IMG/VR virus record: IMGVR_UViG_3300048580_000994
Location: 18,430 to 82,429 of that record
DNA length: 64,000 nucleotides
Reading direction: 5' to 3' (one strand)
DNA from: a virus
This document shows, piece by piece, positions 3,338-26,646 of this stretch. The translations under genes and the position numbers were made by a program. Under the pieces are notes generated by a model. It was not told the DNA's origin, searched no databases, and was given only the letters and a program-made list of their open reading frames with translations. Each line of letters starts with the position of its first letter. Within the stretch, counting starts at the first letter, position 1.

Positions 3338-3431
3338 AAATTGCATTCGTTAGGGTACCTTGATTATGTTGGTAAAAAATCTTGAGTATCTCAAAGCAAT
3401 ACCATCCAACAATGGTTAGTAAGGTTCGAAC

Positions 3432-6792: not shown

Positions 6793-6922
6793 ATACCAGG
6801 GAGGACGATTACAAGATCGTAGATGAATGTCAGGATAATACAGAACCCCGGCTATAGGATGTTAAAAATATTTGTAAATACTATATAATCATATTATAAT
6901 AATGAATGATGGAGAATAAAAA

Positions 6923-10684: not shown

Positions 10685-11860
10685 TTATTTTTTGTGTCTT
10701 GTCATTCCTCGCCAGAAACCTTCTGGTATTGTATCGTTATGATTTAATCTTGTATTAATTATTCCATTGGTTATATAAATTTTTCCAGACATAGATGCAC
10801 TTATTTTTTCTTTGTGTTCTTGGGTTTTTGATAAATGTTTGGATGTTATTACTATTGGTTGGATATTATTTTTATCCCAAGTTTGAATTTTTTTTATTAA
10901 TTCTTCGATGGACATTCCGATTCCAGTACCTTTAGTGATATTATCTAAATTGGATAATAATTGACAATTCGCTGGGTGTGATATAATTTTTGGGTCAATA
11001 TTATTTCTCCAGCCATATTCGACTGATATTATATGGTCTCTACAAACACCTTGTTTGTTATTAGTTGAATTGTAGAACCCATATTTTAATAATAAATCAT
11101 AGCCTTGTATATTTGGGTATAAGAAAACATCGAATAAAAATTTACATTCTTTTTTATAGATTTTTTTCTTATCTGTCATTTTTGTACCAGATTGTATTCT
11201 GTAATTTTGGTTTGCTATGGTTAATGTTCTTAAATTAATTCCTATTATTTTTAAAAACATTCCAAAATCACTATATTGGATTTTTAGATAGTTTTTAATT
11301 TCTTTTGCAGACATTTTTTCATTTGTGTATAGTCTATCTAATTCTTTTATTGAATTATTAATGTTTATTTGTGTTTGTTGATTGCCTAATTGAAAATTAA
11401 ATATATTAGCTAATTTTTTTGCAATCGGGAGTTTTGTTGGGTTATCCCACCCTGTGGCTGGTTTTAATTTAGGATGGTATATATTGCCTGTGATTGGGGA
11501 ATATTTAATTTTGGTATGTTGGTATTTGTTTTTTATTTTAATTGGGTTTTGTTTATTAATTTTTAATTTTTCAGATATTTGTTTTTTTGCGGTTTCAGGC
11601 ATTGCCCACCCGGTTTCTTTTCGTTTTTTATTATTATATTTAGCAGAACAAGAACTACTACAAAAATTGTTTGATTTATTATCATATTTTATCAAAATTC
11701 CACAATATAGACATTTTTTTGGGTTTTGGTTATATGTTTTGATGTTTTCATTTTTGGTATGATCGCCATAACATTTTGGTGAACAAAAAGTTGATGTTGT
11801 TTTTGCTGGTATAAATTCTTTTTTACATTCTGGGCATATAGCAGTTTTTTTCATTTGCAT
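10685..11860 (-). CDS. HNH-type endonuclease (Zn ribbons, HTH-like region, HPANC domain, NUMOD-like tail)
   Basis: RDHIIS...HPANC...DN motif; start moved to MQMKK after the CGGAGA RBS. Confidence 0.78.
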   Translation of the reverse strand: MQMKKTAICPECKKEFIPAKTTSTFCSPKCYGDHTKNENIKTYNQNPKKCLYCGILIKYDNKSNNFCSSSCSAKYNNKKRKETGWAMPETAKKQISEKLKINKQNPIKIKNKYQHTKIKYSPITGNIYHPKLKPATGWDNPTKLPIAKKLANIFNFQLGNQQTQININNSIKELDRLYTNEKMSAKEIKNYLKIQYSDFGMFLKIIGINLRTLTIANQNYRIQSGTKMTDKKKIYKKECKFLFDVFLYPNIQGYDLLLKYGFYNSTNNKQGVCRDHIISVEYGWRNNIDPKIISHPANCQLLSNLDNITKGTGIGMSIEELIKKIQTWDKNNIQPIVITSKHLSKTQEHKEKISASMSGKIYITNGIINTRLNHNDTIPEGFWRGMTRHKK

Positions 11861-11890
11861 TTTCTCCGAATAAAGTATATAAATAAAAGG

Positions 11891-11949
11891 AGTGGGACAA
11901 GCCCTTCTCCGATGGGTTTCCAATACTTCCGACGGTGTTGGATACCACT
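11891..11949 (+). ncRNA. Nuclease-divergent sRNA, copy 3
   Basis: AGTGG..AAGCCC-TTCTCCGAT-GGGTTT..CAATAC/GTGTTG..CCACT. Confidence 0.75.
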
Positions 11950-12002
11950 ACTATTTATATTATTTATCATTTTAGTTGTAATTGTCAATATTTAATTTTT
12001 AT

Positions 12003-12078
12003 GGGTGTGTGAAGGGAATTTGGTATACCTTGTGTTCTTAGAAATCACAGTTTGCAGGTTCGATGCCTGTCGCACCCA
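12003..12078 (+). tRNA. tRNA-Leu(TAG) with short variable region
   Basis: Anticodon arm GTGTT-CTTAGAA-ATCAC; acceptor GGGTGTG/CGCACCC. Confidence 0.75.
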
Positions 12079-12093
12079 CTAAAATGTTTTTAT

Positions 12094-12167
12094 GGTCTTA
12101 TAGTGAAATTGGATATAACATCAGTCTACGAAACTGAAGATGGTGGGTTCAAATCCTCCTAAGACCG
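12094..12167 (+). tRNA. tRNA-Arg(ACG)
   Basis: Anticodon arm TCAGT-CTACGAA-ACTGA. Confidence 0.9.
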
Positions 12168-12176
12168 CTTATATTA

Positions 12177-12248
12177 TGGCTGGGCTGCAAGGTGCAGGGC
12201 TGTCTCTCATAAGGACGGATGCGTGGATTCGATTTCCATACCAGCCAC
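12177..12248 (+). tRNA. tRNA(CAT) Met or Ile2
   Basis: Anticodon arm TGTCT-CTCATAA-GGACG. Confidence 0.7.
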
Positions 12249-12259
12249 TACTAAAAAGT

Positions 12260-12368
12260 TTTTGAGCCGTTTATAAAACGTTATCTTTTTTTGTCAAAAA
12301 GACCTGTCAGTTCGACTCTGGCGATGGGCGGATTCCCGGTTTACATGTTTTATTACCATTTGTTCAAA
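12260..12368 (+). ncRNA. Permuted-tRNA scaffold element A
   Basis: TTTGAGC-CG..ATAAAACG-TTATC..[anticodon-like arm, T arm GTCAG-TTCGACT-CTGGC]..TGTTTTAT-TACC-ATTT-GTTCAAA. Confidence 0.7.
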
Positions 12369-12372
12369 AAAT

Positions 12373-12458
12373 GCGGGTAGCAGACATCTGGGGGTGTCAC
12401 CGGTCTTCCAAACCGGCTACTGTAAAAGGTATTTTGGATTCGATTTCCACTACCCGCT
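12373..12458 (+). tRNA. tRNA-Gly(TCC) with long variable arm
   Basis: Anticodon arm CCGGT-CTTCCAA-ACCGG; acceptor GCGGGTA/TACCCGC. Confidence 0.8.
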
Positions 12459-12460
12459 CT

Positions 12461-12593
12461 AAATTTGTGCCGAATAAGGAAGATTATCTCAAAACTGTGT
12501 GTTGTGATTTTCGAATGTCACCATCTTTTCGAAGATGTAGCTCAATGGTAGAGCAATAGTCAAAAACACTTCTTTAACACCTTGCATAAATTT
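12461..12593 (+). ncRNA. Permuted-tRNA scaffold element B (acceptor closed by TTCG)
   Basis: T arm, then CATCTT-TTCG-AAGATG, then D arm TAGCTCAATGGTAGAGCA inside the conserved scaffold. Confidence 0.8.
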
Positions 12594-12600
12594 AAAATTT

Positions 12601-12735
12601 AAGAGCCGTATGAAAAATGTTATCCTGTTAAGATCGAAGTCGTGAGTTCGATTCTCACTTACCCCGCTAAAAATATATTATGGGGTAATAACTCAGTGGT
12701 AGAGTGCGTAAAGTGTTTTTCAACCATTTGCTCTT
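12601..12735 (+). ncRNA. Permuted-tRNA scaffold element C: circularly permuted tRNA-Asn(GTT)
   Basis: 3' half 12622-12666 precedes 5' half 12682-12708; joined they give anticodon arm CGATC-CTGTTAA-GATCG and acceptor GGGGTAA/TTACCCC-G. Confidence 0.85.
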
Positions 12736-12739
12736 ATAT

Positions 12740-12812
12740 CACCCTATCGTATAATTGGATAGTACCACACACTCTCAATGTGTAAATACGGGATCATAGC
12801 CCGTTAGGGTGA
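12740..12812 (+). tRNA. tRNA-Glu(CTC)
   Basis: Anticodon arm ACACA-CTCTCAA-TGTGT. Confidence 0.8.
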
Positions 12813-12815
12813 CGA

Positions 12816-12945
12816 AATCGTTATAGGGAACAACAACCTTTCGCAAGAATGGGTTGCCCTATGACGTAATAGGTCAACGACGACCAAGTTCAAGTGTTTA
12901 TCGTGCTTTGGAAAATCCCACTATACCGGTTGTGTGGGAACGATT
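12816..12945 (+). ncRNA. Unclassified multi-hairpin RNA between tRNAs
   Basis: AATCGTT/AACGATT closure with internal hairpins; no ORF. Confidence 0.4.
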
Positions 12946-12950
12946 ATTTT

Positions 12951-13023
12951 TGCCCCTTGGCGCAACTGGTAGCGCAGCGCACTCTGAATGCGAAGGTTCC
13001 AATTTCGAATATTGGAGGGGCAG
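12951..13023 (+). tRNA. tRNA-Gln(CTG)
   Basis: Anticodon arm CGCA-CTCTGAA-TGCG; acceptor TGCCCCT/AGGGGCA. Confidence 0.85.
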
Positions 13024-13028
13024 CTAAA

Positions 13029-13099
13029 ATAAGCCGAAGGTAAATGGTTATCGCAAACATCAACTTTGAAAAAACATCATTCACCAACCCTTGCTTATT
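13029..13099 (+). ncRNA. Scaffold element D (minimal insert)
   Basis: ATAAGC-CG-AA-GGTAAATGG-TTATC...TCATTCACC-AACC-CTT-GCTTAT. Confidence 0.7.
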
Positions 13100-14135
13100 T
13101 TATTATTTTTTGTTTTGATAGAATTATATATCCTTTTATAGCTAATTTATCATAGCTTATCTTTGTAAAAATATTATGATTTTTTAGGAATTCTCTCATA
13201 TTATTTGTTGTTATAATTGATTTGTCAGGTAATTGAATTTTATACAGGAATTGTGGGTTAGGTTTTCTGGTTGTTGGTGATATATAATTTGGATTTTGTT
13301 GTTTAAGAAATTCTCTGGATTCTTTGGGTGTTCTTATTGATATATTTAATAATCTTAATAATTTATGCAAACCACCAGTGTTTTTATGATTAACTAACCT
13401 ACTAAGTTCTATAGAACTATATTTATTATATAAATTTTTGGCATAGTTTTTACATAATTCCCAATCAGTAATAAAGTTTGGTGTGCCTAAATTTGCCAGA
13501 TTCAAATTAAAATATTTGTTTAATCCTGGTAATGCTTGTTTACTCATATCTATTTTGCATATTTGGCATAGTGTTTTTGATTTATGTCTTGTGCCGCAAA
13601 ATGGACAGATCGTTAATTTTAATTTTTTTTCTTCTAATGATAATTTTGGTTGATAACCGTTTTTTGGCCCATACCATCCTTGTCCTATATATTCTTCTAT
13701 TAATGTTTTTGGGACTTGTTTTTGTAAGTTTATTATCCAAGAATGTGTGACCCAGCACATTCCATATCTTGGGTTTTTGCTACCTGTAAATTGTTGCATT
13801 GTTTTGCTCATGTTTTTTCTGGCATATTCATATAAATGGGAATTAAAATATCTATGATTATTTACAGTTGTTTTCATCATATTAAAAGCTCTGACCATAC
13901 TATACCAATTCTCTGTATTAATTGGTAACATTTTACAAAGAAGATAGTGGCATATAAAATGTTCTCTGGCAGTTAATAGAACTAAATTTTCTTTGGTGTT
14001 ATCCCCTTTCAATGATTTTGGTAATATATGGTGTTTTTCATAATATTGGGTTTTGGATTTAACCCTTGGTTGTGATTTGGCATTAGTAATAATATTATAA
14101 TACCAGTTGTAGTATTTATTTTTTATAAAAATCAT
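13095..14135 (-). CDS. HNH homing endonuclease (Mob-like, N-terminal HNH)
   Basis: YYEKHHILPKSLKGDNTKENLVLLTAREHFICHYLL. Confidence 0.88.
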   Translation of the reverse strand: MIFIKNKYYNWYYNIITNAKSQPRVKSKTQYYEKHHILPKSLKGDNTKENLVLLTAREHFICHYLLCKMLPINTENWYSMVRAFNMMKTTVNNHRYFNSHLYEYARKNMSKTMQQFTGSKNPRYGMCWVTHSWIINLQKQVPKTLIEEYIGQGWYGPKNGYQPKLSLEEKKLKLTICPFCGTRHKSKTLCQICKIDMSKQALPGLNKYFNLNLANLGTPNFITDWELCKNYAKNLYNKYSSIELSRLVNHKNTGGLHKLLRLLNISIRTPKESREFLKQQNPNYISPTTRKPNPQFLYKIQLPDKSIITTNNMREFLKNHNIFTKISYDKLAIKGYIILSKQKIIK

Positions 14136-14170
14136 TTTGACTTATCTCCAGTCTAAAGTTATAAATAGAT

Positions 14171-14230
14171 GAGCGGGACAAGCCCTACTCCAGTTGGGTT
14201 TCAATTATCGTCAAATAATTGATACCGCTC
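14171..14230 (+). ncRNA. Nuclease-divergent sRNA, copy 4
   Basis: Covariant P1 GAGCGG/CCGCTC; loop TACTCCAGTT. Confidence 0.75.
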
Positions 14231-14299
14231 CTAATCTTATTTATCTTTTTGTTTCAGAATTGCGTATTTTATTTTTTTACCAATAAAGGAGGGACTATC

Positions 14300-14524
14300 A
14301 TGACCAATACACATACACAATGCGAGCTAAGACGTGGAAATTTCACACAAGTTGCTTGGATACCAAGCGAATATGCTACAGTCGGGAAGTATCTCAAATT
14401 GAAATATAATGGTACTTGGAACGATGGATGGAAAGTGGAACAATTGGGTTCATCCCAAGACAGTGACTTTACCAGAGAACGTTCACAAGATTATAAAAAT
14501 ATGAGAAAGATGACCGATATCTAG
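14300..14524 (+). CDS. Hypothetical protein
   Basis: AAGGAGG RBS before MTNTHTQC. Confidence 0.6.
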   Translation: MTNTHTQCELRRGNFTQVAWIPSEYATVGKYLKLKYNGTWNDGWKVEQLGSSQDSDFTRERSQDYKNMRKMTDI

Positions 14525-14703
14525 GATATCGGTCTTTTTTTATGACCAAAATTACAATTTTTAATTGTGGTTTGATAGTGTTGGAAATTCTAAGAATTTC
14601 TGTAACCATTAAAAACTATCACAACATTGCACCAATGGTCCAGTTGACGGGCATTGTTAGGAAACGTGCGAATCGTTCTTGGTGTACAACATGGAGAAAT
14701 ATC

Positions 14704-14979
14704 ATGGTAGGAAGAATCGAAAACTATATCCATTCGGATTCACAAATCACCCATAAGGGTGGGGTAATAGTCAAAGTAACAGCCCAAACAGATTTCGCTG
14801 CGAGAACGTTAGAGTTTATCCAGTTCGTTCAATTTATTCCAAAATATTGCTATGCTTGTGGGGGCGAAACATGGAATGACGTGATCGAAATGTTCCCAGA
14901 GTTGGAAGACAAACGTATCGCAGTTGAAAAAATCTTGAAAGAAACCATTCAGGTATCCTTCAAGACACTTCAAGTATAA
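14704..14979 (+). CDS. Mini EF-Ts-like protein (single core subdomain)
   Basis: GRIENYIH...GGVIVKVTAQTDFAARTLEF matches the EF-Ts G-I-sYIH..G.lve..ETDFVAR segment; GGAG RBS. Confidence 0.7.
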   Translation: MVGRIENYIHSDSQITHKGGVIVKVTAQTDFAARTLEFIQFVQFIPKYCYACGGETWNDVIEMFPELEDKRIAVEKILKETIQVSFKTLQV

Positions 14980-15018
14980 AATAACCCGACACACAGTTAT
15001 CGCAACGATAATATCTGT

Positions 15019-15537
15019 TCAGTGTGTCGGGTCATTTTTAATGAAAAAATTCTTGATCCTTTCTTTCGTTGAAAGTATCATAATCTTAAAATTATATGCA
15101 ATTTTTTTAACAATATTCCACACTGAAAGTGATGTGATATAATTGTGAATTCGTTGCTTTATGTTTTTAATATGGGTATATAAAAATAAAAACCATTTGA
15201 TACTTAAAAGCTTTTCTTTGGTTTGTTGAAATATCCAAACAGTGGGTATAAAACCAAATAATTTTGAACATACCCATATTATAGAGCCATTTATAAAATC
15301 ACCACCAGCTATTAATAAATATGCCCAACCAGCAACAATCTCACTAATACCAAATGGTATGGCAAATAATGTTAAAATAACATATGCATGAAATGTTTGT
15401 AGAAATAATCCAAACGCTATCATGTATGGATGATTGGATATGAATTTTAAAATCTGTCTTGAAGTATACCAAACAAATTCATATACCAAAAACAAAATCG
15501 CTGAAATGTATTTTATTAATAACGTAATTTTCTTCAT
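15019..15537 (-). CDS. Multi-pass membrane protein
   Basis: Several hydrophobic helices. Confidence 0.65.
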   Translation of the reverse strand: MKKITLLIKYISAILFLVYEFVWYTSRQILKFISNHPYMIAFGLFLQTFHAYVILTLFAIPFGISEIVAGWAYLLIAGGDFINGSIIWVCSKLFGFIPTVWIFQQTKEKLLSIKWFLFLYTHIKNIKQRIHNYITSLSVWNIVKKIAYNFKIMILSTKERIKNFFIKNDPTH

Positions 15538-16243
15538 AATAAATTATTTAGCATTTATTAAATGGTGTTTTCAAATTAAAAATGATAATATGATAAATGG
15601 AAATAAATTGTGTTTCCATAATAAAGGAAACCCATATTATGAAAAAACCATTCGTGTCATGCTTCGCAGATATCGGGACTACCAGAGAACAATCACCAGA
15701 AATGAAAGCAGCCAAAGCCCATTATGCTAAAATGGTCAATGATCTAAGAATTAAAAATGAAAAGAAAGACCTTAAACCATTGGGTGAAGAAACTAAAAAA
15801 GAATGATGGATATGGGGACTAAAATCCCCCATATTTTTTTTAAAAACGTTGAAAATAATTTGACACAAGTTGGATTATAGGGTATAAATAAAAGAATGGA
15901 AAGCGACGTTGGAAGGATTTTTGGAGATTTTTTAATGATAAATAGTTTGGACCAAAAAATAAAATTACCAGATGGTGTATATACTTTAAAATTTTTATTT
16001 GATAATGGTAGAGCAGAATATTATCTTTGTCCATCTTTAGGTAGACCTTGGGGGATAACAACCCCAGCACACTTTATAGATTTTGATGGGTCAAAATTAT
16101 GTATCGAAATTAGTGAAAAATTAAAAAATAAATTAAAAATAATTTGACAAAAACGTTGGAGTAGAGTATAAATAAAGAATAGAAAGAAACGTTGAAGAAA
16201 AAAGTTAGACAGAAGTGTTAAATGGAATTTTAGAACACTTTAT

Positions 16244-16363
16244 GCCGGATTAGCAAAGCGGTCGAATGCACCGGTTTTGTTAAGCACAGAGGGCGTGGTA
16301 ATTCACGATGTGTGCTTTACAAACCGGTATCCCACAACGCAGGTTCGAATCCTGTGTCCGGCA
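16244..16363 (+). tRNA. tRNA-Thr(TGT) with 40-nt anticodon-loop intron (about 16281-16320)
   Basis: Removing the hairpin insert restores CCGGT-TTTGTAA-ACCGG; acceptor GCCGGAT/GTCCGGC. Confidence 0.8.
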
Positions 16364-16420
16364 CTACACCTTATTGAAAAATAAGGATAATTTTCATTCA
16401 TCAATGATGAATGAAACCTC

Positions 16421-16593
16421 GGGGCTAAAGTGTTGACGGGGGCACGATAGATTTTTCCGTGGCGGGTAACGCTTCGGGTGGATTATGAAAAATTATAATC
16501 CTACTGATGGACAAGGGTTGAAGCCCCTTTATGTGCAAGTCATATAGTCCAAGTGGCATTCTATAAGGCGGGTTTCGATTACCCGTAGCTCCA
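16421..16593 (+). tRNA. tRNA-Ala(GGC or TGC) with about 101-nt anticodon-loop intron
   Basis: Acceptor GGGGCTA/TAGCTCC with G3:U70; anticodon arm ATAGA-TT[insert]GGCAT-TCTAT. Confidence 0.78.
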
Positions 16594-16625
16594 CTAAGTA
16601 ATTTGTATTAAAGGACTCTATTAAT

Positions 16626-17492
16626 TTAGAGTCCTTTTTCTTTTTTAACATACTCCCAATTTAGATTTTCATATTTGTCTATGATAAGAAAATTCTTATT
16701 GTATATTTTTAACCATTTATCGATCCTAACCATTTGTTCTGGATTTTTCCAAGCCTTTGGGTCAAGATATAAATTAAAATCTGGTAAGAAAAAATCTGGT
16801 GTGTATGAACTGCCGCCACCAATCCAAAAATGATATGCTCGTTTCCATTTTATTCCTGCTTTATCAAGTTCATTTGCCATTTTCCATTCCCAAGTAGAAT
16901 CTAACTGGCATTCCCTTCCAAAAGAATCTATATATTGAATTTTTTTGGACCAACCACTGGCTGATCTCCATTCTGGGTGTAGTGCAATCCCGCTTGGGTT
17001 TGCCAAACAGCGTTGTCTGAGTTTTTCTTTTGTTTCGTCTGAGTGTGTGGTTTGTAATCCAGATGTAAATTGATTACCAAAAGATTCGTGGGTTGAACCT
17101 AATTTATATAAATGAGTATCTTGGTGTTGTATACCATTTTCAGTATGAGATAGCCAATAATGTGATAATAACGATGTTCTTGAATTAAAATTTTGTTGGC
17201 AATTCGGACATACCCATAAATTATTAATTAGACAATCATTTGTTATTATAGATGCAACATTAGTTTTTAATTTGTTTGGTCCAGTAAAATAAGTCCCGTC
17301 ACAGGAGTCATTGTGTTTTTTAAAATTGCTTTTAGATATTTCTCTGTTGCATTTTTCGCAGCATTTTGTTGCTTTTAATGCAGTTGATAAATTTTCGCTT
17401 CTGCATTTATCTGAACAATAATTTTTTCTTCTATTGGTTGTTGTGAATGCTGTTTTGCAGTGCTGGCATATTTTAGTTTTTTCTTTGCTCAT
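16626..17492 (-). CDS. Zn-finger PD-(D/E)xK homing-type nuclease
   Basis: STWE...YTPDFFLPDFNLYLDPK; N-terminal CxxC/C2H2 fingers; HSDETKEKL NUMOD3-like motif. Confidence 0.78.
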   Translation of the reverse strand: MSKEKTKICQHCKTAFTTTNRRKNYCSDKCRSENLSTALKATKCCEKCNREISKSNFKKHNDSCDGTYFTGPNKLKTNVASIITNDCLINNLWVCPNCQQNFNSRTSLLSHYWLSHTENGIQHQDTHLYKLGSTHESFGNQFTSGLQTTHSDETKEKLRQRCLANPSGIALHPEWRSASGWSKKIQYIDSFGRECQLDSTWEWKMANELDKAGIKWKRAYHFWIGGGSSYTPDFFLPDFNLYLDPKAWKNPEQMVRIDKWLKIYNKNFLIIDKYENLNWEYVKKEKGL

Positions 17493-17532
17493 TTTATTGA
17501 CCTCTCTAAAATTAAATGTTATAAATAAGAAT

Positions 17533-17596
17533 TAGCGGGACAAGCCCATTCACTCTTGGTGGGTTTTCCGAACCTCAGAAATTTGGAATACCGCTA
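17533..17596 (+). ncRNA. Nuclease-divergent sRNA, copy 5
   Basis: P1 TAGCGG/CCGCTA; P2 AAGCCCA..TGGGTTT; P3 TCCGAA/TTTGGA. Confidence 0.72.
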
Positions 17597-17662
17597 CTAT
17601 TATTATTTATCAATTATGAATTAAAAAGTGTAATAAAGTCAATATAATAAGGAGAAATATAT

Positions 17663-18049
17663 ATGGAATTAATATCATTAACGCAGTTATTTAAACCAAT
17701 TATTGGGTTGTTTGAAACATTTAATAAGCCTTCATTTGATATAAACAAGCCCTCTGTATTAAATGTTAGTATTAAGGAAATTGATGTGTATAAAAAATAT
17801 GAATTGAATATTAAAAATAATGGGAATGGTTTGGCTACTAAAATAAATATCAAAGTTGGTGTCCATAGTCCATTTGAACAATTTATTGAAAATATGAATC
17901 CACAAGACAATAGAAATTTTGAATTTGTGCTAAAAGAAAGTAGGGATATAAAACAAGAAAAACGCAAACGTTATTTTGAATTTGAGATGACGTATATTGA
18001 ACCAAAAGCAGGAAAAAAAGAAATTACAGAAAGAATTTTTATCGAATAA
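17663..18049 (+). CDS. Hypothetical protein flanked by a 22-bp direct repeat
   Basis: AATAAAGTCAATATAATAAGGA at 17632-17653 and 18045-18066. Confidence 0.65.
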   Translation: MELISLTQLFKPIIGLFETFNKPSFDINKPSVLNVSIKEIDVYKKYELNIKNNGNGLATKINIKVGVHSPFEQFIENMNPQDNRNFEFVLKESRDIKQEKRKRYFEFEMTYIEPKAGKKEITERIFIE

Positions 18050-18076
18050 AGTCAATATAATAAGGAAAACCCTCCA

Positions 18077-18316
18077 ATGAAAACTCATATTAGTATCCCT
18101 CGTTTAGAACTTTGGGAATTTTTGGAATGGATGACTGATAATAATGTTGTATATAATGTTACAGATGAAGATTTTTTAATGAATGTTGTTTCTGCGTCTG
18201 ATTCAAAATATGGTAGATTTTTTGGTTCAACATCCACTTTTAAGTTTCCCATTGAGATATTATCTAATGAGGTATTATTTAGATTGCGCTGGGGTGGGTA
18301 TGAATATTTGGAATAA
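18077..18316 (+). CDS. Small protein with C-terminal LFRLRWG motif
   Basis: ORF with RBS; C-terminal motif shared with other ORFs. Confidence 0.6.
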   Translation: MKTHISIPRLELWEFLEWMTDNNVVYNVTDEDFLMNVVSASDSKYGRFFGSTSTFKFPIEILSNEVLFRLRWGGYEYLE

Positions 18317-18583
18317 AATTGATAAATACTCTTATGATAATACTTTACCCTCTTGACCCATTTAAAACACAATTCATTAAAGATGAATATGAAAGGGGAG
18401 TGTCTTGTGTTGAATCTGCGAAAGAATGGGATAGAATATTAAACGAGAGCACTACTGATTATACAGAATTAATTAATGATTTAAAAGATATTATTAAAAA
18501 AGTTGATCTTTAACAAAACCTTCTTGACAAAAAATTAAAATCTGGTATAGTGGATAAAGTTAAACAATTGAGGAGTGCTGGTT

Positions 18584-19021
18584 ATGTATGCTATTGAGTC
18601 TTTTGATTTTAATGACACTTTTGAAAAATGCAAGAACATTGGTTGGGAGAGCTACGTTACAAAGGTGGAAAGTATTAAGGCTGCCAATAGTCGTCCTACT
18701 CGTGCGTTGACTTTTGGTGATATTACCAAGCGTTTGAAGAGGAATAATGTGGTTATTGTTTATTCTGCATCTCGTCATTTTCGGTCTGTTACTAAAGAGG
18801 TGATTATTGGTACTGGTGTTCATTATTTCAATAATGGCAGCAAGGATGCTTTTCTTAATAAGAAGGTTGTTTATTCTGGTGGTCTTGTGGACACTCTGCA
18901 TTTGTTTGTTGGTGATCGGAATCTTCGGGCTGGTATTGTTAATGGATATAATGATTGGTTTTTGTTTGCCAATCTGTATGATGCTGAACAGTGGTCCAAC
19001 AAGGAACATGTTGTTTGTTAA
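18584..19021 (+). CDS. Hypothetical early protein
   Basis: TTGACA..TATAGT promoter and GAGGAG RBS. Confidence 0.6.
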   Translation: MYAIESFDFNDTFEKCKNIGWESYVTKVESIKAANSRPTRALTFGDITKRLKRNNVVIVYSASRHFRSVTKEVIIGTGVHYFNNGSKDAFLNKKVVYSGGLVDTLHLFVGDRNLRAGIVNGYNDWFLFANLYDAEQWSNKEHVVC

Positions 19022-19090
19022 ATTGAGACTGATAATGGAAAATAGAATTCCTAAAGGAATTCTATTTTCAAGAAATTATTTTAGATAATC

Positions 19091-19663
19091 TCAATTAATG
19101 TTTGAGTACTCATTTTTGACTTGTTCAAATATTGTATTTGGCAATTCTACTTGTAATAAATTTTTTAAATGTTTGATACATTCTTTTACTACTGCTACTG
19201 TTTCTACCAAATGTCCATTATTGCCTCTAACATCTGTTGGTGTGTATTCTCTCCAATATTTAATTAAAGTTTCTCCGTGTGTTGTTTTCAATTTGTTATT
19301 TACTGCGAAACCGAGTATGGATGCTTTATTGTTGGAATTATAAATTTTCCCTGTTACGTAGAATTTAAATTTTGTTTTTCTTTGACGGTTTGGGTTATTG
19401 CGTAATACATCATTATTATCAAAGGTATCATATGAAGCATCATTTCTTACCATTTCCACTTGAAAGTTTGGTTTTATTAATTTATTAAGTTTGTTTGCGA
19501 CTATTTTTAATTTATTGATTGTGTATATATATTCTTTACCTTCTTCTTCGAATGGTTCATCGAACAATGTGTTTTTGGCTGCAATGACTGATTTTTTGAT
19601 TGCATTGAAATCTTCGTTTATTTTGGTAGCTTCCATTAATTTTCTCATATCTGTGGCTGACAT
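19091..19663 (-). CDS. Hypothetical late protein (DMRKLME leader)
   Basis: AAGGAGA RBS and upstream TAAATA. Confidence 0.7.
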   Translation of the reverse strand: MSATDMRKLMEATKINEDFNAIKKSVIAAKNTLFDEPFEEEGKEYIYTINKLKIVANKLNKLIKPNFQVEMVRNDASYDTFDNNDVLRNNPNRQRKTKFKFYVTGKIYNSNNKASILGFAVNNKLKTTHGETLIKYWREYTPTDVRGNNGHLVETVAVVKECIKHLKNLLQVELPNTIFEQVKNEYSNIN

Positions 19664-19776
19664 AATAATTTCTCCTTAAAATTTGTTATATAAATATATT
19701 TATTTTTTCCATAAAATCGCTTGACTAAAAATTAAAATCTGTTATACTGATTTAATCAAATGATGGAGTGACTATT

Positions 19777-20073
19777 ATGAACATCGCCCGAGAAATTTTT
19801 CGTCAGCTTGGTGGGAATCGTTTTTCTGTTATGACTGGTTCGAAGAATTATACCAGCATTGGGAATGGGCTGCAGTTTAGCCTCCCCAAGCGATATAATG
19901 GTATTAATAAGATTTCCATTACTCTTGAAGGGGATGACACTTACACTGTGCGGGGATATTATTTTAGTGTGTCCAAGTTGACCTGTGATATGGTTCAAGA
20001 AGTTTCTGGGGTATATTGTGAAAATCTGCAGGAGGTATTTACTTCCATGACTGGATTGTATACTAGGCTTTAA
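19777..20073 (+). CDS. Conserved-looking small phage protein
   Basis: IFRQLGGNRFSVMTG...DDTYTV...YCENLQEVFTSMTGL; own promoter. Confidence 0.65.
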   Translation: MNIAREIFRQLGGNRFSVMTGSKNYTSIGNGLQFSLPKRYNGINKISITLEGDDTYTVRGYYFSVSKLTCDMVQEVSGVYCENLQEVFTSMTGLYTRL

Positions 20074-20091
20074 AGAAAAATTTAAATATTG

Positions 20092-20117
20092 AAAAGCACC
20101 CTTGTGGTGCTTTTTTT
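20092..20117 (+). terminator. Repeated intrinsic terminator (also 20877-20902 and 22019-22044)
   Basis: AGCACC-CTTGT-GGTGCT followed by a T run, identical in three copies. Confidence 0.85.
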
Positions 20118-20255
20118 GTGAGTAATTTCTGAGTATAAAAATATATTATCTGAGTGTTGTGGAGATAATAAATTTGCATTGGTGTGCTCTGAGTGGTATA
20201 TTGGTGTTATAGAGTGAAGTTTTGCACTCACAACCATTATGGATAGGAGATTGCT

Positions 20256-20867
20256 ATGGGGAAAAATTTTATATTAAAAGTTGCTACTACATTATCTGAT
20301 GGTGGGGTTGATATTAAGAGTTTTAATTCTGAAGTAAATGAATTGATTTTGCGAGATTCAACTGGTGAAGAATACGTACTGATTAAAAAGTCTAATTTGC
20401 CTGTAACAATTATTCCAAGGATTCAGGCTCCTGTATTACAGCCAACACAGACCGCTGCACCAATTACTAGGAATACAAATGGTAGATTTGTTATTAATGG
20501 GCAGCTTGTTCGTTATACAAAGAAAAGGGTTATTAATGGTATTAATGTTGAACTTACTGCTAATGGTAGGACAACGTATAATTCAAATGGTAAACGTGGT
20601 GGGACTAACGGTATTACACTACTTGCGGGTTCGATGATTTTGGTTCATCATAGTAAAAATATGGGGGATAATATTATTGAAATAAAGAATGAATTATTAA
20701 ATGTTGGGTGGTTGAAACTTTGTCAGAATAATAATCTTGTTTATATTCTTGATAATGATGTTTATTTTGATAAAATATCATCAGCCACTACTCTTATCAA
20801 TGGGCAGCGAATGGATGGTTATCGGGCTAAAGTAATGTATAAACCAGATAATTGGCAATGTGTATAA
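20256..20867 (+). CDS. DUF4357-like domain protein, paralog 1
   Basis: LLAGS...DVYFDKISSATTLINGQRMDG. Confidence 0.55.
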   Translation: MGKNFILKVATTLSDGGVDIKSFNSEVNELILRDSTGEEYVLIKKSNLPVTIIPRIQAPVLQPTQTAAPITRNTNGRFVINGQLVRYTKKRVINGINVELTANGRTTYNSNGKRGGTNGITLLAGSMILVHHSKNMGDNIIEIKNELLNVGWLKLCQNNNLVYILDNDVYFDKISSATTLINGQRMDGYRAKVMYKPDNWQCV

Positions 20868-21027
20868 AATATTAAAAAAAGCACCCTTGTGGTGCTTTTT
20901 TTGTGAGCAATTTTTAATCCTGAAAAAAAGTTAAAAAGAGTCGAAAAAGGTCTTGCAATAATTTCTAAACCTGCTATTATGATAATAACAGATGGATAGT
21001 CCAAATGTTCCAAAAGGAGATTATATT

Positions 21028-21561
21028 ATGGGTAACGAAATGATGTTGACTGTTGCGAAGCTTTTCTCCAACAGTGGTATTTCTTGGAGCGTTAATGAGG
21101 AACGGGATAGGATGACTGTTTTTGGTTCTGATGGTTCTGAGTATGTTTTTCAGAAAATTTCCAGTGACCTTCGCAATGAACAAGGTCGGTTTGTCGTTAA
21201 TGGGCAGAATGTTGTGATGAACAGTAAGCGCAAGATTAACGGGAAGATGGTTTCCTTTACTGCGACTGGTATTACCATGTATAATGGGTCGAAGAATTCT
21301 GATAATGGTGGTGCCAACTCTATTATGCTTGAAGCTGGGACGTTGGTGTGTAATGTTGAGCATCATGCTCGTGGGCTTCATGGGATTGGTGCTGACGTTG
21401 AAGCTCAGAAGATGATGTTTATCAATAATGATATTTTGGGTGAGTTTGATGAATATCGGATGATTCTTCGGGAAGATATTCATTTTGTGTCGATTTCAGC
21501 TGCTACTACTTTCATCCTTGGGAGGTTTGCCAACGGGTATGAGCATTGGGATTTGGTTTGA
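21028..21561 (+). CDS. DUF4357-like domain protein, paralog 2
   Basis: EDIHFVSISAATTFILGRFANGYEHW; shares RNxxGRFV(I/V)NGQ with paralog 1. Confidence 0.6.
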   Translation: MGNEMMLTVAKLFSNSGISWSVNEERDRMTVFGSDGSEYVFQKISSDLRNEQGRFVVNGQNVVMNSKRKINGKMVSFTATGITMYNGSKNSDNGGANSIMLEAGTLVCNVEHHARGLHGIGADVEAQKMMFINNDILGEFDEYRMILREDIHFVSISAATTFILGRFANGYEHWDLV

Positions 21562-21658
21562 TGGTTTTTGAGAAAAAAACCAGGGATTTACAGGAATTCA
21601 GTTGACAAGTGGTTTGAGTGTGATATAGTAAATTATAAATCAACAATAGGAGGTATCA

Positions 21659-22009
21659 ATGACTACAAAAATTCAGAATGGTGATTTTGTGAAAACCAGC
21701 GCAAATCGCAAAATTGTTGGGGCACCAAATGGTGAAGTACATGTGTCGAGTGGTGGTAGGGCAACTATCATTGGTAAAAAATATTTGGTTGAAGTGTTTG
21801 AGAGTAGTACTGCGATTCATGAGAATCATCACACCAGTATTGACCCTAAAGAAGCAATTCTAAAGCAACGTCTTCTTGCTAATGGGGTTATTATCCCAGA
21901 TGGACCATTTAAATATGTTTTTGTCAAGCGATATGTTTTTGATAGCTTGAGTGCATACTCAAGGTTCATATCTGGTATTAGTTCCAATGGACATACCCAA
22001 GTAAAGTAA
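21659..22009 (+). CDS. DUF4357-like domain protein, paralog 3
   Basis: LLANGVI...YVFDSLSAYSRFISGISSNG. Confidence 0.55.
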   Translation: MTTKIQNGDFVKTSANRKIVGAPNGEVHVSSGGRATIIGKKYLVEVFESSTAIHENHHTSIDPKEAILKQRLLANGVIIPDGPFKYVFVKRYVFDSLSAYSRFISGISSNGHTQVK

Positions 22010-22080
22010 ATATTAAAAAAGAGCACCCTTGTGGTGCTTTTTTTCTTGATTAAAAGTATAAATATGATAGTATAAAGAAT

Positions 22081-22155
22081 GCTTTGATAGGTTAAGTGGC
22101 AAACCGCATTTCTCGTAAAAATGAGTCCCAGCTTCGACCGCTGGTCAAAGCACCA
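22081..22155 (+). tRNA. tRNA-Thr(CGT)
   Basis: Acceptor GCTTTGA/TCAAAGC-ACCA; anticodon arm CATTT-CTCGTAA-AAATG. Confidence 0.88.
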
Positions 22156-22171
22156 CTACAAGAAAGGTTTT

Positions 22172-22834
22172 ATGATGTTTACGTTTAATAACAAGACCAA
22201 CGAAGTTCCATGGGATGAATATTTTGACATGGCTCATCAGCTTGGTATTACTCCGAATATGTTTGAATTTGATTGGCAATTTGACAAAGAAAGTGTCAAG
22301 GAGCATTTGGAAAAATACTCCCGAGATTATTGGACTATTAATGGTTGTTATGTTGGGTTAGCATCCAATGCAGACGCTATGATGTTGGTGTTGAAATATT
22401 CTTGTAAGAAGATTGACGCCAAGGTATATTTTGGTGATATTAAGGATAGATTATCTTATAAAACCCATCCAAGAATTTTGGATAAATGCTCTGAAAAATA
22501 TTTGAAGGGGTTAATTTCTGCAATGATTCGGAAGAAGACCAAAAGCATTACTCCTAACATTTGTCCCAACTATAGCTTTACCCTTGGGGAGATCGAGGCT
22601 ATTTTGGAAGATAAGATTTACGAACGAAATCGAAAAGAAACCATTGCGAGGAAAGCCCCAGAAGAACTAAAGCGTATTTCCACTCGAAAGCTTTTGAGAG
22701 CATATAGGGATTGGGCTGCTTATGAATATTATGAGGGGATTTATATTGAAGGTGTTCTGTATGGTTCTTTGGTTGTCAAGGCTGTTTTGGACGTAAGGGA
22801 ACATTTGAAGAAGAAACCGAAAATTAGGAGATAA
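22172..22834 (+). CDS. Hypothetical protein
   Basis: Start moved past the tRNA; AAAGG RBS. Confidence 0.65.
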   Translation: MMFTFNNKTNEVPWDEYFDMAHQLGITPNMFEFDWQFDKESVKEHLEKYSRDYWTINGCYVGLASNADAMMLVLKYSCKKIDAKVYFGDIKDRLSYKTHPRILDKCSEKYLKGLISAMIRKKTKSITPNICPNYSFTLGEIEAILEDKIYERNRKETIARKAPEELKRISTRKLLRAYRDWAAYEYYEGIYIEGVLYGSLVVKAVLDVREHLKKKPKIRR

Positions 22835-22899
22835 ATATTGCTATATATGATGGGATTAAGGTAGTATATGGTGATATTGGGGTGAAAAACCCCAACAAT

Positions 22900-22981
22900 G
22901 GAGGGTAGCATCCGAGGTGGATAACTGGCTTCGAACCCCAGGCCAACCGCAAGGTTGAAGTTTCGACTACTTTACCTTCCG
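22900..22981 (+). tRNA. tRNA-Ser(CGA)
   Basis: Acceptor GGAGGGT/ACCTTCC-G; loop TTCGAAC; long arm AACC-GCAA-GGTT. Confidence 0.75.
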
Positions 22982-23026
22982 CTAAAAATTTGATAAATAC
23001 TTTTAACTCTAAAATGGATTCCAATT

Positions 23027-23521
23027 ATGCGTTTAAATGATTTATCGGAAATTAAAATTTATTCCTTACAACCTGTTGATTTTTCACCAGAACAATTGGA
23101 TGAAATTTGTGACCTTATCTGTACTGGTGGTGAAGTGACAAAAGTAGGATTGGAGAAAAGAATTCGCCAAGCCAAATTAATCGCAGTTGCTGAAAAAGAT
23201 GGTAGATTTGTTGCTTGTTCATCCATAAAAGTCCCAGACCCAATGTATAGAGCTAAAATTATACAAAGGGCAGGTATAATATTTAAACCTCAACTTGAAT
23301 TAGGATGGGGTTTTACCCTACCAGAATATCGCAACCAAAAACTTGGGACAAAACTGAAAGAAGAATTGTTTAAAAACGTCCCCCCAACAAATGTTTATGC
23401 CACTGTTAGATTGAAGAATAAACCAGCCATCAAGGGCATCGAAAAATTTGGGTTTAAGGCTGTTGGAACACCATATCAGGGAATGAGTGGGGATTTGATC
23501 TCCATATTTTTAGTCAGATAA
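23027..23521 (+). CDS. GNAT acetyltransferase (MRLNDL leader)
   Basis: ELGWGFTLPEYRNQKLG motif A; NKPAIKGIEKFGF motif B. Confidence 0.8.
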   Translation: MRLNDLSEIKIYSLQPVDFSPEQLDEICDLICTGGEVTKVGLEKRIRQAKLIAVAEKDGRFVACSSIKVPDPMYRAKIIQRAGIIFKPQLELGWGFTLPEYRNQKLGTKLKEELFKNVPPTNVYATVRLKNKPAIKGIEKFGFKAVGTPYQGMSGDLISIFLVR

Positions 23522-23635
23522 AGGGCCGAATAAAATTGATTATCGGATAATAGAATTGTTAATGCAGTTTTTAGATGGTTCAAGCCCATCAATCAATCGC
23601 AAGATTGAAAAATTCAATTTTAAAACCTTGCCCTT
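23521..23635 (+). ncRNA. Scaffold element E with T arm and GNRA-closed stem
   Basis: AAGGGC-CG-AA-TAAAATTGA-TTATC..GATGG-TTCAAGC-CCATC..TCAATTTTA-AAACC-TT-GCCCTT. Confidence 0.75.
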
Positions 23636-23674
23636 TTGATTTTTTGTGATATGATGAATAAAAGGAGAATAATA

Positions 23675-23908
23675 ATGGATGCAACATTAGACATACCACT
23701 TCAAGTTACAGTTCGTTTGGGTAAAACAAAAATGTCCATCAAACAACTTTTGAAAATGGGTAGGGGTGCTGTATTGGAATTGGATAATTTAGTCACAGAC
23801 CCAATTGAACTATTAGTCAATGGAAAGGTTGTTGCATTGGGTGAAGTTGAAATTGTTGGTGATAATTATGGGATTAAGATAACTGAAGTTTTTGGGAAAA
23901 CAGCTTGA
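23675..23908 (+). CDS. fliN: FliN-like flagellar switch (SpoA) domain protein
   Basis: LDIPLQVTVRLGKTKMSIKQLL...GAVLELD...LVNGKVVALGEVEIVGDNYGIKITE. Confidence 0.88.
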   Translation: MDATLDIPLQVTVRLGKTKMSIKQLLKMGRGAVLELDNLVTDPIELLVNGKVVALGEVEIVGDNYGIKITEVFGKTA

Positions 23909-26140: not shown

Positions 26141-26646
26141 GAGATTGATATGCCAAGAATGTTAGACGAAGAAACATCAGCGAAAATGATTTGTCCCTAC
26201 CTTCAAGATAAATGCCACACCCGCACTTGTATGGCTTGGCGTTTTGAAGACAAACCAATTCCAGAAGACGAGAAGAACCCTAAATTTAGAGGGTATTGTG
26301 TTATAATGGAAAAATAAGAGTTGAATTCATTCTCATGTTGCCCAGCAGTGCAACATAAATGATAAAATCGCTAATTTAATATGCTCTATTGCGCTTTCAA
26401 GTATTAAATGTGCGTAAACCGGAATTCGTAAAATATTAAGGAAATTTTATCAACTGCACCATCTTATCCTTGACACCAACTAAATATCTTGCTAATATAT
26501 CCTGATGACGTTAGAAAGGATTGTATGATGATTATCACCAGTGGGGTCATTTTTTTGATTTGGCTTCTTAGCTTATTTTCCAGTAAAGCACCAAGTGGAT
26601 TCATTTTCGTCATTTGGTTCTTTAGTCTTTTTTGTCTGTGAATCAA

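What the first reader, a model, noticed from the sequence alone, without database searches (positions are those of the whole stretch)
12260..23635. Conserved RNA scaffold enclosing circularly permuted tRNA halves or fragments (5 copies)
Seen: elements at 12260-12368, 12461-12593, 12601-12735, 13029-13099 and 23521-23635 share one architecture. It runs outer stem ending GC, CG, 2-3 nt, 8-9-bp inner stem, TTATC, insert, inner stem, ACC, (A/C)0-1 TT(T), outer stem. Both stems differ in sequence in each copy but still pair (ATAAAACG/TGTTTTAT, TAAGGAAG/CTTCTTTA, TGAAAAATG/TGTTTTTCA, GGTAAATGG/TCATTCACC, TAAAATTGA/TCAATTTTA). The CG, TTATC and ACC nucleotides are invariant. The inserts are tRNA parts in permuted order (anticodon region, T arm, acceptor 3' strand, linker, acceptor 5' strand, D arm), ranging from complete (C, B) to partial (A, E) to minimal (D). 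Established: permuted tRNA genes are known in some algae and a crenarchaeon, where a splicing endonuclease acts on BHB motifs, which this scaffold does not resemble. Inference: an undescribed processing or ligation signal, a small ribozyme, or a family of tRNA decoys against host anticodon nucleases or sensors.
Basis: partly seen in the sequence, partly recalled or inferred. Interest (0 to 1): 0.9.

Follow-up and report, generated by a model that had tools for sequence, protein, structure and literature searches.

The report
Phage Y RNAs with tRNA-like inserts
The five elements are real and are best read as phage genes for Y RNAs, a known kind of small RNA whose conserved stem binds the ring protein Ro60 and whose variable middle often imitates a tRNA.

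Summary
Five + strand elements share GCCG-N11-TTATC plus a 3' ACC..TTG(C/T), and two stems that covary (72 of 75 pair cells paired, 11 of 15 pairs with changes on both sides).

The scaffold is not an unknown processing signal. A covariance model built only from these five copies finds the same scaffold beside Ro60 (TROVE) genes in other viral contigs. It gave 86 hits in 43 of 80 Ro60 loci, all 86 on the Ro60 strand. Rfam YrlA (Y RNA-like) matches B and C below its threshold and overlaps the model's hits in Vibrio phage BONAISHI.

The permuted tRNA order (T arm, closed acceptor, D arm) is the published YrlA layout. Element C is an extreme case: its halves rejoin into a perfect tRNA-Asn(GTT).

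No Ro60 gene lies in this 82-kb fragment, estimated 33% complete. The one large kin contig carries Ro60 about 58 kb from its own copies.

Verdict: new members of a known kind. This scan has reported phage Ro60/handle-RNA arrays on other DNA before.

The parts
12259..12370 (+). Element A. Y RNA-like gene with a 9-bp outer stem, GCCG, an 8-bp inner stem and UUAUC. The insert holds a hairpin, a T arm (GTCAG/TTCGACT/CTGGC) and a 3-bp capped stem, with no D arm.
   Evidence: R1 72.6 bits
12461..12593 (+). Element B. Y RNA-like gene of YrlA type. The handle is at 12461-12488 and 12569-12593. ACTGT (12494-98) pairs with ATAGT (12556-60). The T arm is 12504-12521, the acceptor-like stem capped by UUCG is 12522-12537, and the D arm is 12540-12554.
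   Evidence: YrlA 32.8 bits, E 4.8e-5; R1 90.9 bits
12601..12735 (+). Element C. Y RNA-like gene whose insert is a complete permuted tRNA-Asn(GTT). UUAUC is 12620-12624. The 3' half (anticodon arm, T arm, acceptor 3' strand, G73) is 12622-12666. A 15-nt AT-rich linker is 12667-12681. The 5' half (acceptor 5' strand, D arm, nt 26-28) is 12682-12708.
   Evidence: YrlA 34.3 bits, E 1.8e-5; R1 100.5 bits; ARAGORN tRNA-Asn on the halves rejoined in a script
13029..13099 (+). Element D. Minimal Y RNA-like hairpin: the handle with an exact GCCGAAG 5' motif and a 24-nt loop. It is the last gene of the tRNA block and is followed by a T-rich tail.
   Evidence: R1 62.9 bits
23521..23635 (+). Element E. 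Y RNA-like gene that fills the gap between a GNAT gene (ends 23521) and a FliN-like gene (starts 23636). The insert holds a hairpin, a T arm (GATGG/TTCAAGC/CCATC) and a 6-bp stem capped by GCAA, with no D arm. A T-rich tail follows.
   Evidence: z -3.4; R1 107.2 bits
12005..13024 (+). Context: a tRNA block in which A-D are interleaved 2-12 nt from tRNA genes at 12005-12078, 12094-12168, 12178-12247 (weak), 12373-12457, 12740-12813 and 12951-13024. HNH homing-endonuclease genes on the - strand flank it (10685-11923 and 13095-14135).

Best explanation
The five elements are genes for Y RNAs, the small non-coding partners of the ring protein Ro60 (Rsr), carried in the tRNA island of a T4-like jumbo phage from lake water.

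The outer stem, the 4 x 7 nt internal loop (5' CG-NN, 3' A-ACC-UU), the inner stem and the UUAUC motif form the constant Ro60-binding handle. The variable insert is the effector module. It is a full tRNA mimic in C and B, a partial one in A and E, and absent in D, which resembles a YrlB or sbRNA-type minimal Y RNA.

Shown: the handle is conserved, covaries, and is genomically tied to Ro60 genes in many unrelated phages.

Inferred: the RNAs are cut out of the tRNA transcript by tRNA-processing enzymes. They bind a Ro60 that is probably phage-encoded in the unsampled two thirds of the genome, or else the host's. As in known systems, they would gate Ro60's cavity or tether it to another factor, such as PNPase or proteins that recognise the tRNA elbow.

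Element C has a 7-bp acceptor stem, G73 and a spacer. It is predicted to be nicked by RNase P and given a CCA end, as M. smegmatis YrlA is.
For: 1. A model (R1) built only from the five window copies hits 4 of 28 viral contigs picked by a loose pattern. All 4 encode TROVE/Ro60, against 0 of 23 pattern-only contigs; one further contig was not held. The hits lie within about 1 kb upstream of Ro60 on the same strand, apart from one unlinked copy each in G003 and G004.

2. In 80 viral Ro60 loci, R1 gives 86 hits at E<=0.1 in 43 loci, and 86 of 86 are on the Ro60 strand. Seventy-three are upstream (median 363 nt) and 13 downstream. A plain regex, CCGRA-N7-11-TTAYC, gives 113 hits on the Ro60 strand and 8 on the other.

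3. Rfam YrlA matches C (34.3 bits, E 1.8e-5) and B (32.8 bits, E 4.8e-5). In Vibrio phage BONAISHI, YrlA (59.3 and 35.8 bits) overlaps R1 hits in the unannotated gap upstream of the Ro gene. In a Bxz1-type mycobacteriophage, YrlA (36.1 bits) lies inside a weak R1 hit upstream of the Ro gene.

4. The published Y RNA hallmarks are present. These are the 5' GNCGAAN0-1G motif (exact in D), the T arm / acceptor stem-loop / D arm order, and RNase P cleavage with CCA addition for a YrlA with a 7-bp acceptor stem (Chen 2014, passages). UUAUC at the 5' end of the loop is reported for sbRNAs (Kowalski 2015, passage). Phage Yrls with a CGAA motif bind a phage Ro60 (NAR 2025, passages).

5. The only large kin contig (topoisomerase II 44% identical, 164 kb) has an intact TROVE+vWA_Ro60 gene. 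Its three R1 hits lie next to tRNA genes about 58 kb from that gene.
Against: No TROVE/Ro60 gene is present in the 82,429-bp record, either by the Pfam model or with the kin's Ro60 as query. The partner is therefore unseen; CheckV estimates the record at 33% complete.

Rfam YrlA scores are about half the gathering score of 69, and D and E match no Rfam Y RNA family. A and C read GCCGUU and GCCGUA rather than GNCGAA, although these two positions also vary among the Ro60-linked hits.

Thirty-seven of 80 Ro60 loci gave no R1 hit. No binding or transcript-end data exist. The only expression hint is contigs from two RNA libraries that cover 12494-12667, and those libraries may contain DNA.
Confidence: 0.87

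Rival explanations
1. The handle has been taken over by a different protein. On this reading the RNAs are Ro60-independent tRNA mimics or decoys, for example baits for host anticodon nucleases or tRNA sensors, and this phage has no Ro60.
For: No Ro60, RtcB or Rnl1/Rnl2 family gene is in the 82 kb. Copies also occur far from Ro60 in G003, G004 and G052. C, and strictly 13 of 33 long relatives with a T arm, display an anticodon-like 7-nt loop.
Against: The same handle motifs are the ones conserved next to Ro60. Every contig where unlinked copies were seen (G003, G004, G052) also encodes Ro60. The record is only about one third of the genome.
Confidence: 0.07
2. These are true permuted tRNA genes. 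The scaffold would direct cleavage and ligation so that C, at least, matures into a functional linear tRNA-Asn.
For: The rejoined halves of C give a flawless 72-nt cloverleaf with anticodon GTT, a 7-bp acceptor stem, G73 and a spacer like those between tRNAs.
Against: B is sealed by UUCG with no discriminator. A and E lack D arms and D has no tRNA part, yet all share the scaffold. The scaffold tracks Ro60 genes. No RNA ligase was found in the record. The window already has two standard tRNA-Asn(GTT) genes. The scaffold has an internal loop, not a bulge-helix-bulge motif.
Confidence: 0.04
3. The scaffold is a small self-cleaving or self-ligating ribozyme.
For: The only support is that a few nucleotides are invariant in an internal loop between covarying stems.
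Against: No Rfam ribozyme family matches at E<=10. The conserved nucleotides coincide with published Ro60-contact and Y/sbRNA motifs.
Confidence: 0.01

Closest known systems
YrlA (Y RNA-like A; Rfam RF02553; S. Typhimurium, M. smegmatis and mycobacteriophages; Chen et al. 2014, PMC4201824; Wang et al. 2018, bioRxiv 10.1101/312249)
   Same: The 5' and 3' ends pair into a Ro60-binding stem with a GNCG(AA) motif. The effector module is a tRNA mimic in the order T arm, closed acceptor stem-loop, D arm. B has the S. Typhimurium layout, with the anticodon stem running on into the handle and no anticodon loop. C has the 7-bp acceptor stem that makes M. smegmatis YrlA an RNase P and CCA-adding substrate.
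   Different: Scores are below the Rfam gathering value. Both strands of the handle are conserved, whereas Chen 2014 reports only the 5' strand as recognisable in S. Typhimurium and M. smegmatis. UUAUC is invariant. C carries a complete anticodon arm, which S. Typhimurium YrlA lacks. There are five paralogues, and none is next to a Ro60 gene.
Thermus phage phiLo Yrl1/Yrl2 with phage Ro60 (NAR 2025, PMC12135203)
   Same: Phage-encoded Y RNA-like hairpins with a CGAA-containing internal loop. They have been shown to bind a phage Ro60 and to form complexes with host PNPase (passages only).
   Different: Those RNAs lie directly upstream of the Ro60 gene. I did not compare their sequences. The passages I read do not describe a tRNA-like module.
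Nematode stem-bulge RNAs and vertebrate Y RNAs (Kowalski 2015, PMC4450293; Kowalski and Krude 2015, PMC4726728; Rfam RF01656)
   Same: A lower stem, a bulge or internal loop, an upper stem, then UUAUC at the 5' end of a variable loop. Minimal relatives of D next to phage Ro60 score 37 bits on RF01656, against a gathering score of 38.
   Different: The review states that bacterial Y RNAs are not homologous with the vertebrate clades. D itself does not match RF01656 at E<=10. The eukaryotic RNAs are Pol III transcripts, and a role in DNA replication is reported for them.
Circularly permuted tRNA genes of red algae and an archaeon (recalled; alluded to in Wang 2018)
   Same: The 3' half lies upstream of the 5' half, joined by a spacer between the acceptor strands.
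   Different: Those genes use a bulge-helix-bulge motif and the splicing endonuclease to make working tRNAs. Here the flanks form the Ro60 handle, and most copies cannot give a tRNA.

Membership tests
Y RNA (Ro60-associated ncRNA) | 5' and 3' ends pair into a long stem interrupted by a bulge or internal loop | tested here: met
   All five fold this way. 96% of pair cells pair and 11 of 15 pairs covary.
Y RNA (Ro60-associated ncRNA) | Conserved 5' strand motif GNCGAAN0-1G (bacteria) or GGUCCGA (animals), as given by Chen 2014 | tested here: met
   GNCG is present in 5 of 5 copies. The motif is exact in D (GCCGAAG). B and E read GCCGAAU, and A and C read GCCGUU and GCCGUA. The same two positions vary among the Ro60-linked hits.
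Y RNA (Ro60-associated ncRNA) | Gene lies near a Ro60/TROVE gene | tested here: not met
   No TROVE gene is in the 82-kb record. The feature is met for the RNA family elsewhere: 43 of 80 Ro60 loci, with 86 of 86 hits co-oriented. The kin contig G052 has Ro60 about 58 kb from its copies.
Y RNA (Ro60-associated ncRNA) | Physical binding to Ro60 | not testable with these tools
   This needs a gel shift or co-immunoprecipitation.
YrlA subfamily (RF02553) | tRNA-like module in the order T arm, closed acceptor stem-loop, D arm | tested here: met
   B and C have the full module. A and E have a T arm and a capped stem only, and D has none, so 2 of 5 are full YrlA-type.
YrlA subfamily (RF02553) | Score at or above the Rfam gathering threshold (69 bits) | tested here: not met
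   The scores are 34.3 and 32.8 bits. None of 15 phage Ro60 loci reaches the threshold either, and BONAISHI's best is 59.3 bits.
Permuted tRNA gene (BHB-spliced) | Bulge-helix-bulge motif at the junction, and every copy able to yield a tRNA | tested here: not met
   The two loop strands face each other as one internal loop. B is sealed by UUCG, A and E lack D arms, and D has no tRNA part.
Known self-cleaving ribozymes | Match to a curated ribozyme model | tested here: not met
   No ribozyme family appears at E<=10 over 12150-13200 or 23400-23750.

The most novel reading that the evidence does not exclude
In this phage Y RNA class the insert is not just an elbow mimic. It is a whole tRNA, permuted at position 26/27-28, with the handle's UUAUC serving as the 5' strand of the anticodon stem.

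Element C would then be a Ro60-tethered, two-piece tRNA-Asn. After an RNase P cut at 12681/12682 and CCA addition it would present GUU and G73, so it could be charged by AsnRS or act as a specific bait for enzymes that read the Asn anticodon loop. It would also be a near-intact example of the proposed origin of YrlA from a tandem tRNA pair.

The UUAUC handle, shared with nematode sbRNAs, would argue that phage or bacterial Y RNAs and animal Y RNAs are homologous.
Probability: 0.15. Interest if true: 0.7.

Novelty: new member of a known kind. Interest (0 to 1): 0.4.

Why it matters
The finding turns an apparent new RNA-processing signal into an annotation. T4-like jumbo phages of lake water carry multi-copy Y RNA genes inside their tRNA islands.

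It also yields a compact handle model that finds unannotated Y RNAs next to Ro60 in many phages, including the cultured Vibrio phage BONAISHI. At its gathering score, the curated Rfam YrlA model finds none in the 15 Ro60 loci I tested.

Element C is a good test substrate for whether a Y RNA can be a complete, possibly chargeable tRNA.

The copies lying far from Ro60, here and in a kin contig, show that searching only next to Ro60 undercounts these RNAs.

Tried and rejected
- **Close relatives by DNA:** a blastn of the tRNA/Y RNA block against GenBank phages found only a tRNA-Gln match.
- **Relatives through neighbouring proteins:** the 412-aa neighbour gave none in viral contigs, and LpxC gave none in genome contigs. 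The host therefore remains unknown.
- **Kin among Ro60-bearing contigs:** 23 Ro60-bearing records, including BONAISHI, were tested for a close topoisomerase II. The best match was 27% identity, so none is close kin.
- **Genes near Ro60 in G052:** ORFs of the three fetched stretches of kin G052 were compared with this record. Only topoisomerase II matched, so the test cannot place a Ro60 region in this genome.
- **Terminator scan of 11800-13300:** it found none. The T-rich tails after D and E are read directly from the sequence.
- **Hidden Ro60 next to the RNAs:** the flanking ORFs are HNH or homing endonucleases, a GNAT and a FliN-like protein.
- **Read laying:** all four runs are contigs. Two RNA-library contigs from two studies cover 12494-12667. 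The rest of the stretch has no RNA cover, which shows nothing either way.
- **Permutation test:** ARAGORN found a junction-spanning tRNA in 23 of 37 long elements, and in 0 of the reversed or shuffled controls. Those controls also destroy the T and D arms, so this does not prove an anticodon arm. Under the stricter test, 13 of 33 pass.
- **Papers not seen:** the reviews PMC10870794 and PMC6047535 were not held. They may already show parts of what I describe.
- **Claim of absence from print:** my only claim is narrow. The search 'UUAUC' + 'Y RNA' returned 5 papers, none on bacteria or phages.

Full report
**Observation.** The window is part of an 82,429-bp IMG/VR record (window = bases 18430-82429) that CheckV rates 33% complete. 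It carries 32 ARAGORN tRNA genes, and the 18 kb upstream carry 10 more.

The pattern GCCG-N{10,13}-TTATC occurs six times. Five are on the + strand, at 12266, 12469, 12605, 13033 and 23525, always with exactly 11 nt between the two motifs. The sixth is a - strand match at 6834. The expected number is 0.73, and 0 of 100 shuffles reach six.

I trimmed the copies to 6-bp outer stems, and they then align in register at both ends. For the outer (6 bp) and inner (9 bp) stems, 72 of 75 cells form standard pairs and 11 of 15 pairs change on both sides. None of 500 shuffles reaches any of the measures except one, which a single shuffle reached. Slid controls pair at only 39-51%.

RNAfold recovers both stems in every copy, plus T-arm, capped-stem and (in B and C) D-arm hairpins. 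The z-scores are unremarkable except for E, at -3.4. A covariance model of the five (R1) finds no further copy in the record at E<=1.

**What the scaffold is.** A permissive Rfam scan matched RF02553 YrlA ('Y RNA-like') to C (34.3 bits, E 1.8e-5) and to B (32.8 bits, E 4.8e-5). Both are below the gathering score of 69.

Y RNAs are the partners of the ring protein Ro60, so I tested linkage to Ro60. The test is independent of the RNA model's content. A loose pattern scan of IMG/VR returned 28 contigs, and R1 hit four of them.
- All four encode a TROVE-domain ORF of 534-588 aa.
- None of the 23 other contigs that could be searched does; one was not held.
- In those four, most R1 hits sit within about 1 kb upstream of the Ro60 gene on the same strand.
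- One extra copy in G004 lies between two tRNAs 24 kb from Ro60, and a weak one in G003 lies about 83 kb from it.

I then collected 80 viral Ro60 loci with a profile of those four proteins. R1 gave 86 hits at E<=0.1 in 43 of the 80 loci, all 86 on the Ro60 strand. Seventy-three are upstream (median 363 nt) and 13 downstream. Thirty-seven loci had none. A bare regex for the 5' half gives 113 matches on the Ro60 strand against 8 on the other.

The hits keep G-C-C-G-(A/G)-A, GG-UUAUC and A...C-U-U-G. That conservation is partly circular, because the model contains these motifs.

**Cultured phages.** tblastn finds Ro60 in 361 GenBank phage records, mostly actinobacteriophages.
- In Vibrio phage BONAISHI, three R1 hits fill an unannotated 765-nt gap upstream of the 'RNA binding protein' gene. 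Rfam YrlA overlaps two of them, at 59.3 and 35.8 bits.
- In the Bxz1-type mycobacteriophage ErnieJ, weak R1 hits and a YrlA hit (36.1 bits) lie just upstream of the Ro gene.

**Agreement with print.**
- Chen et al. 2014 (passages read) describe YrlA RNAs next to Ro60 in more than 250 bacteria and phages. They report a 5' GNCGAAN0-1G motif resembling the GGUCCGA that X. laevis Ro60 contacts, and a tRNA-like domain ordered T arm, acceptor stem-loop, D arm. They also show that M. smegmatis YrlA, which has a 7-bp acceptor stem, is cut by RNase P and receives CCA in vivo.
- Wang et al. 2018 (passages) show the L-shaped fold. They note that S. Typhimurium YrlA lacks an anticodon loop, and they discuss an origin from dimeric tRNA transcripts.
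- Kowalski et al. 2015 (passage) report a highly conserved UUAUC at the 5' end of the sbRNA loop.
- A 2025 NAR paper (passages) shows that a Thermus phage Ro60 binds two phage Yrls with a CGAA motif and assembles with host PNPase.

Minimal relatives of element D beside phage Ro60 almost reach the nematode sbRNA family RF01656, at 37 bits against a gathering score of 38. None of 15 phage Ro60 loci reaches the YrlA gathering score, so this phage class goes unannotated under Rfam's cut-offs.

**The inserts.**
- **B** is YrlA-like in the S. Typhimurium sense. ACTGT pairs with ATAGT and runs on into the handle. The acceptor stem is 6 bp, sealed by UUCG, with no discriminator.
- **C** is more complete. 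Joining 12682-12708 to 12622-12666 in a script gives a 72-nt ARAGORN tRNA-Asn(GTT) with a 7-bp acceptor stem, a 5-bp anticodon stem, the loop CUGUUAA and G73. The AUC of UUAUC supplies positions 29-31.
- **A and E** keep a hairpin, a T arm and a small capped stem, but no D arm.
- **D** has only a 24-nt loop.

Among 36 distinct long elements (at least 95 nt; window plus relatives), 33 have a recognisable T arm. In 24 of those 33, UUAUC starts 21-26 nt before the T stem. That is the length of an anticodon arm plus a 5-nt variable loop. Under strict criteria, 13 of the 33 show a hairpin with a 7-nt loop with U at its second position and a purine at its sixth, ending 4-8 nt before the T stem.

A looser circular-permutation test with ARAGORN gave a junction-spanning tRNA in 23 of 37 long elements and in none of the reversed or shuffled controls. 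Those controls also remove the T and D arms, so they do not isolate the anticodon arm. I read this hairpin as an anticodon-arm homologue. Chen 2014 calls a stem-loop at this place 'V', and I could not see their figures.

**Genomic setting and the missing partner.**
- The record encodes T4-type topoisomerase II subunits, tail fibres and several homing endonucleases. The nearest GenBank topoisomerase II is 50% identical, from Xanthomonas phages X1 and BUDD.
- The record also carries FliN-like, LpxC and GGDEF genes.
- A-D lie 2-12 nt from tRNA genes. D and E are followed by T-rich tails.
- The 82 kb hold no TROVE, RtcB or Rnl2-type ligase gene. The Rnl1 search is uninformative, because its control also found nothing.
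- Of four kin contigs found through topoisomerase II (43-55% identity), three are fragments of 8-19 kb. The 164-kb one has an intact TROVE+vWA_Ro60 gene, and its three R1 hits lie next to tRNA-Asp and tRNA-Gly about 58 kb from it. It has no hit at E<=1 in the 5 kb around Ro60.

In this lineage, then, the Y RNA genes live in the tRNA island rather than beside Ro60. The likeliest explanation for the missing partner here is the missing two thirds of the genome.

**Expression.** The stretch recurs in lake-water metagenomes. Two metatranscriptome libraries from two studies contain contigs identical, or nearly so, to 12494-12667, spanning the end of B and most of C. Contigs cannot show ends or strand, and RNA libraries can contain DNA.

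**Mechanism.**
- *Shown:* a conserved, covarying handle that is tied to Ro60 genes across unrelated phages, and tRNA-like inserts of graded completeness.
- *Inferred from the named literature:* the handle binds Ro60. The RNAs gate Ro60's cavity or tether it to PNPase or to proteins that bind the tRNA elbow. They are released from the tRNA transcript by RNase P and 3' processing of their neighbours. C is nicked by RNase P and extended with CCA.

**Verdict.** These are new members of a known kind, so the interest is moderate. It rests on the five-paralogue set with graded tRNA mimicry, a perfect permuted tRNA-Asn, separation from Ro60, and a handle that links phage Y RNAs with animal sbRNA/Y RNA motifs. 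Earlier notes of this scan describe phage Ro60 with handle-tagged tRNA-mimic arrays on other DNA. They agree with this reading but are not independent evidence.

Noticed in passing
L128 (Vibrio phage BONAISHI MH595538.1) locus 3409-3820: Three Y RNA-like genes lie in an unannotated 765-nt gap upstream of ORF49c 'RNA binding protein' (Ro60). R1 scores 29.8, 20.6 and 32.7 bits, and Rfam YrlA scores up to 59.3 bits. The record annotates none of them.
   Followed up: partly
L129 (Mycobacterium phage ErnieJ KT365400.1) locus 2601-2942: R1 and YrlA hits upstream of the Ro gene overlap two annotated 'hypothetical protein' CDSs (2556-2792 and 2797-2970), which may be miscalled RNA genes.
   Followed up: no
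window 11995-12371: One RNA-library contig (run X15) joins 11995 to 12371 with ATT in between. It skips 375 nt that hold three tRNA-like genes and element A. This is probably a strain variant of the array.
   Followed up: no
window 12373-12457: An 85-nt tRNA with a long extra arm scores just over threshold on Rfam tRNA-Sec (49.1 bits against 47), and ARAGORN does not call it. Another note on this genome reads it as Gly(TCC) with a long variable arm.
   Followed up: no
window 16244-16363: An Rfam tRNA hit (42.8 bits) spans 120 nt, which means a tRNA interrupted by a large insertion. Other first-reader notes on this genome discuss intron-like insertions in tRNAs here.
   Followed up: no
window 23636-23908, 26632-27474, 37171-38586: The phage carries host-like genes: a FliN C-terminal domain (E 1.3e-23), LpxC (E 6.8e-89) and a GGDEF diguanylate cyclase (E 4.8e-43).
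   Followed up: no
L044 179-382, L045 150-822, L042 272-1016: Relatives carry three or more tandem minimal handles (58-65 nt) in a row directly upstream of Ro60. Some score 26-37 bits on the nematode sbRNA family RF01656, whose gathering score is 38.
   Followed up: partly
L043 55-765 and L046 117-341 (contig G004): Y RNA-like genes alternate one-for-one with tRNA genes upstream of Ro60, and one copy sits between two tRNAs 24 kb away. Twenty-six of the 80 Ro60 loci hold three or more tRNA genes.
   Followed up: partly
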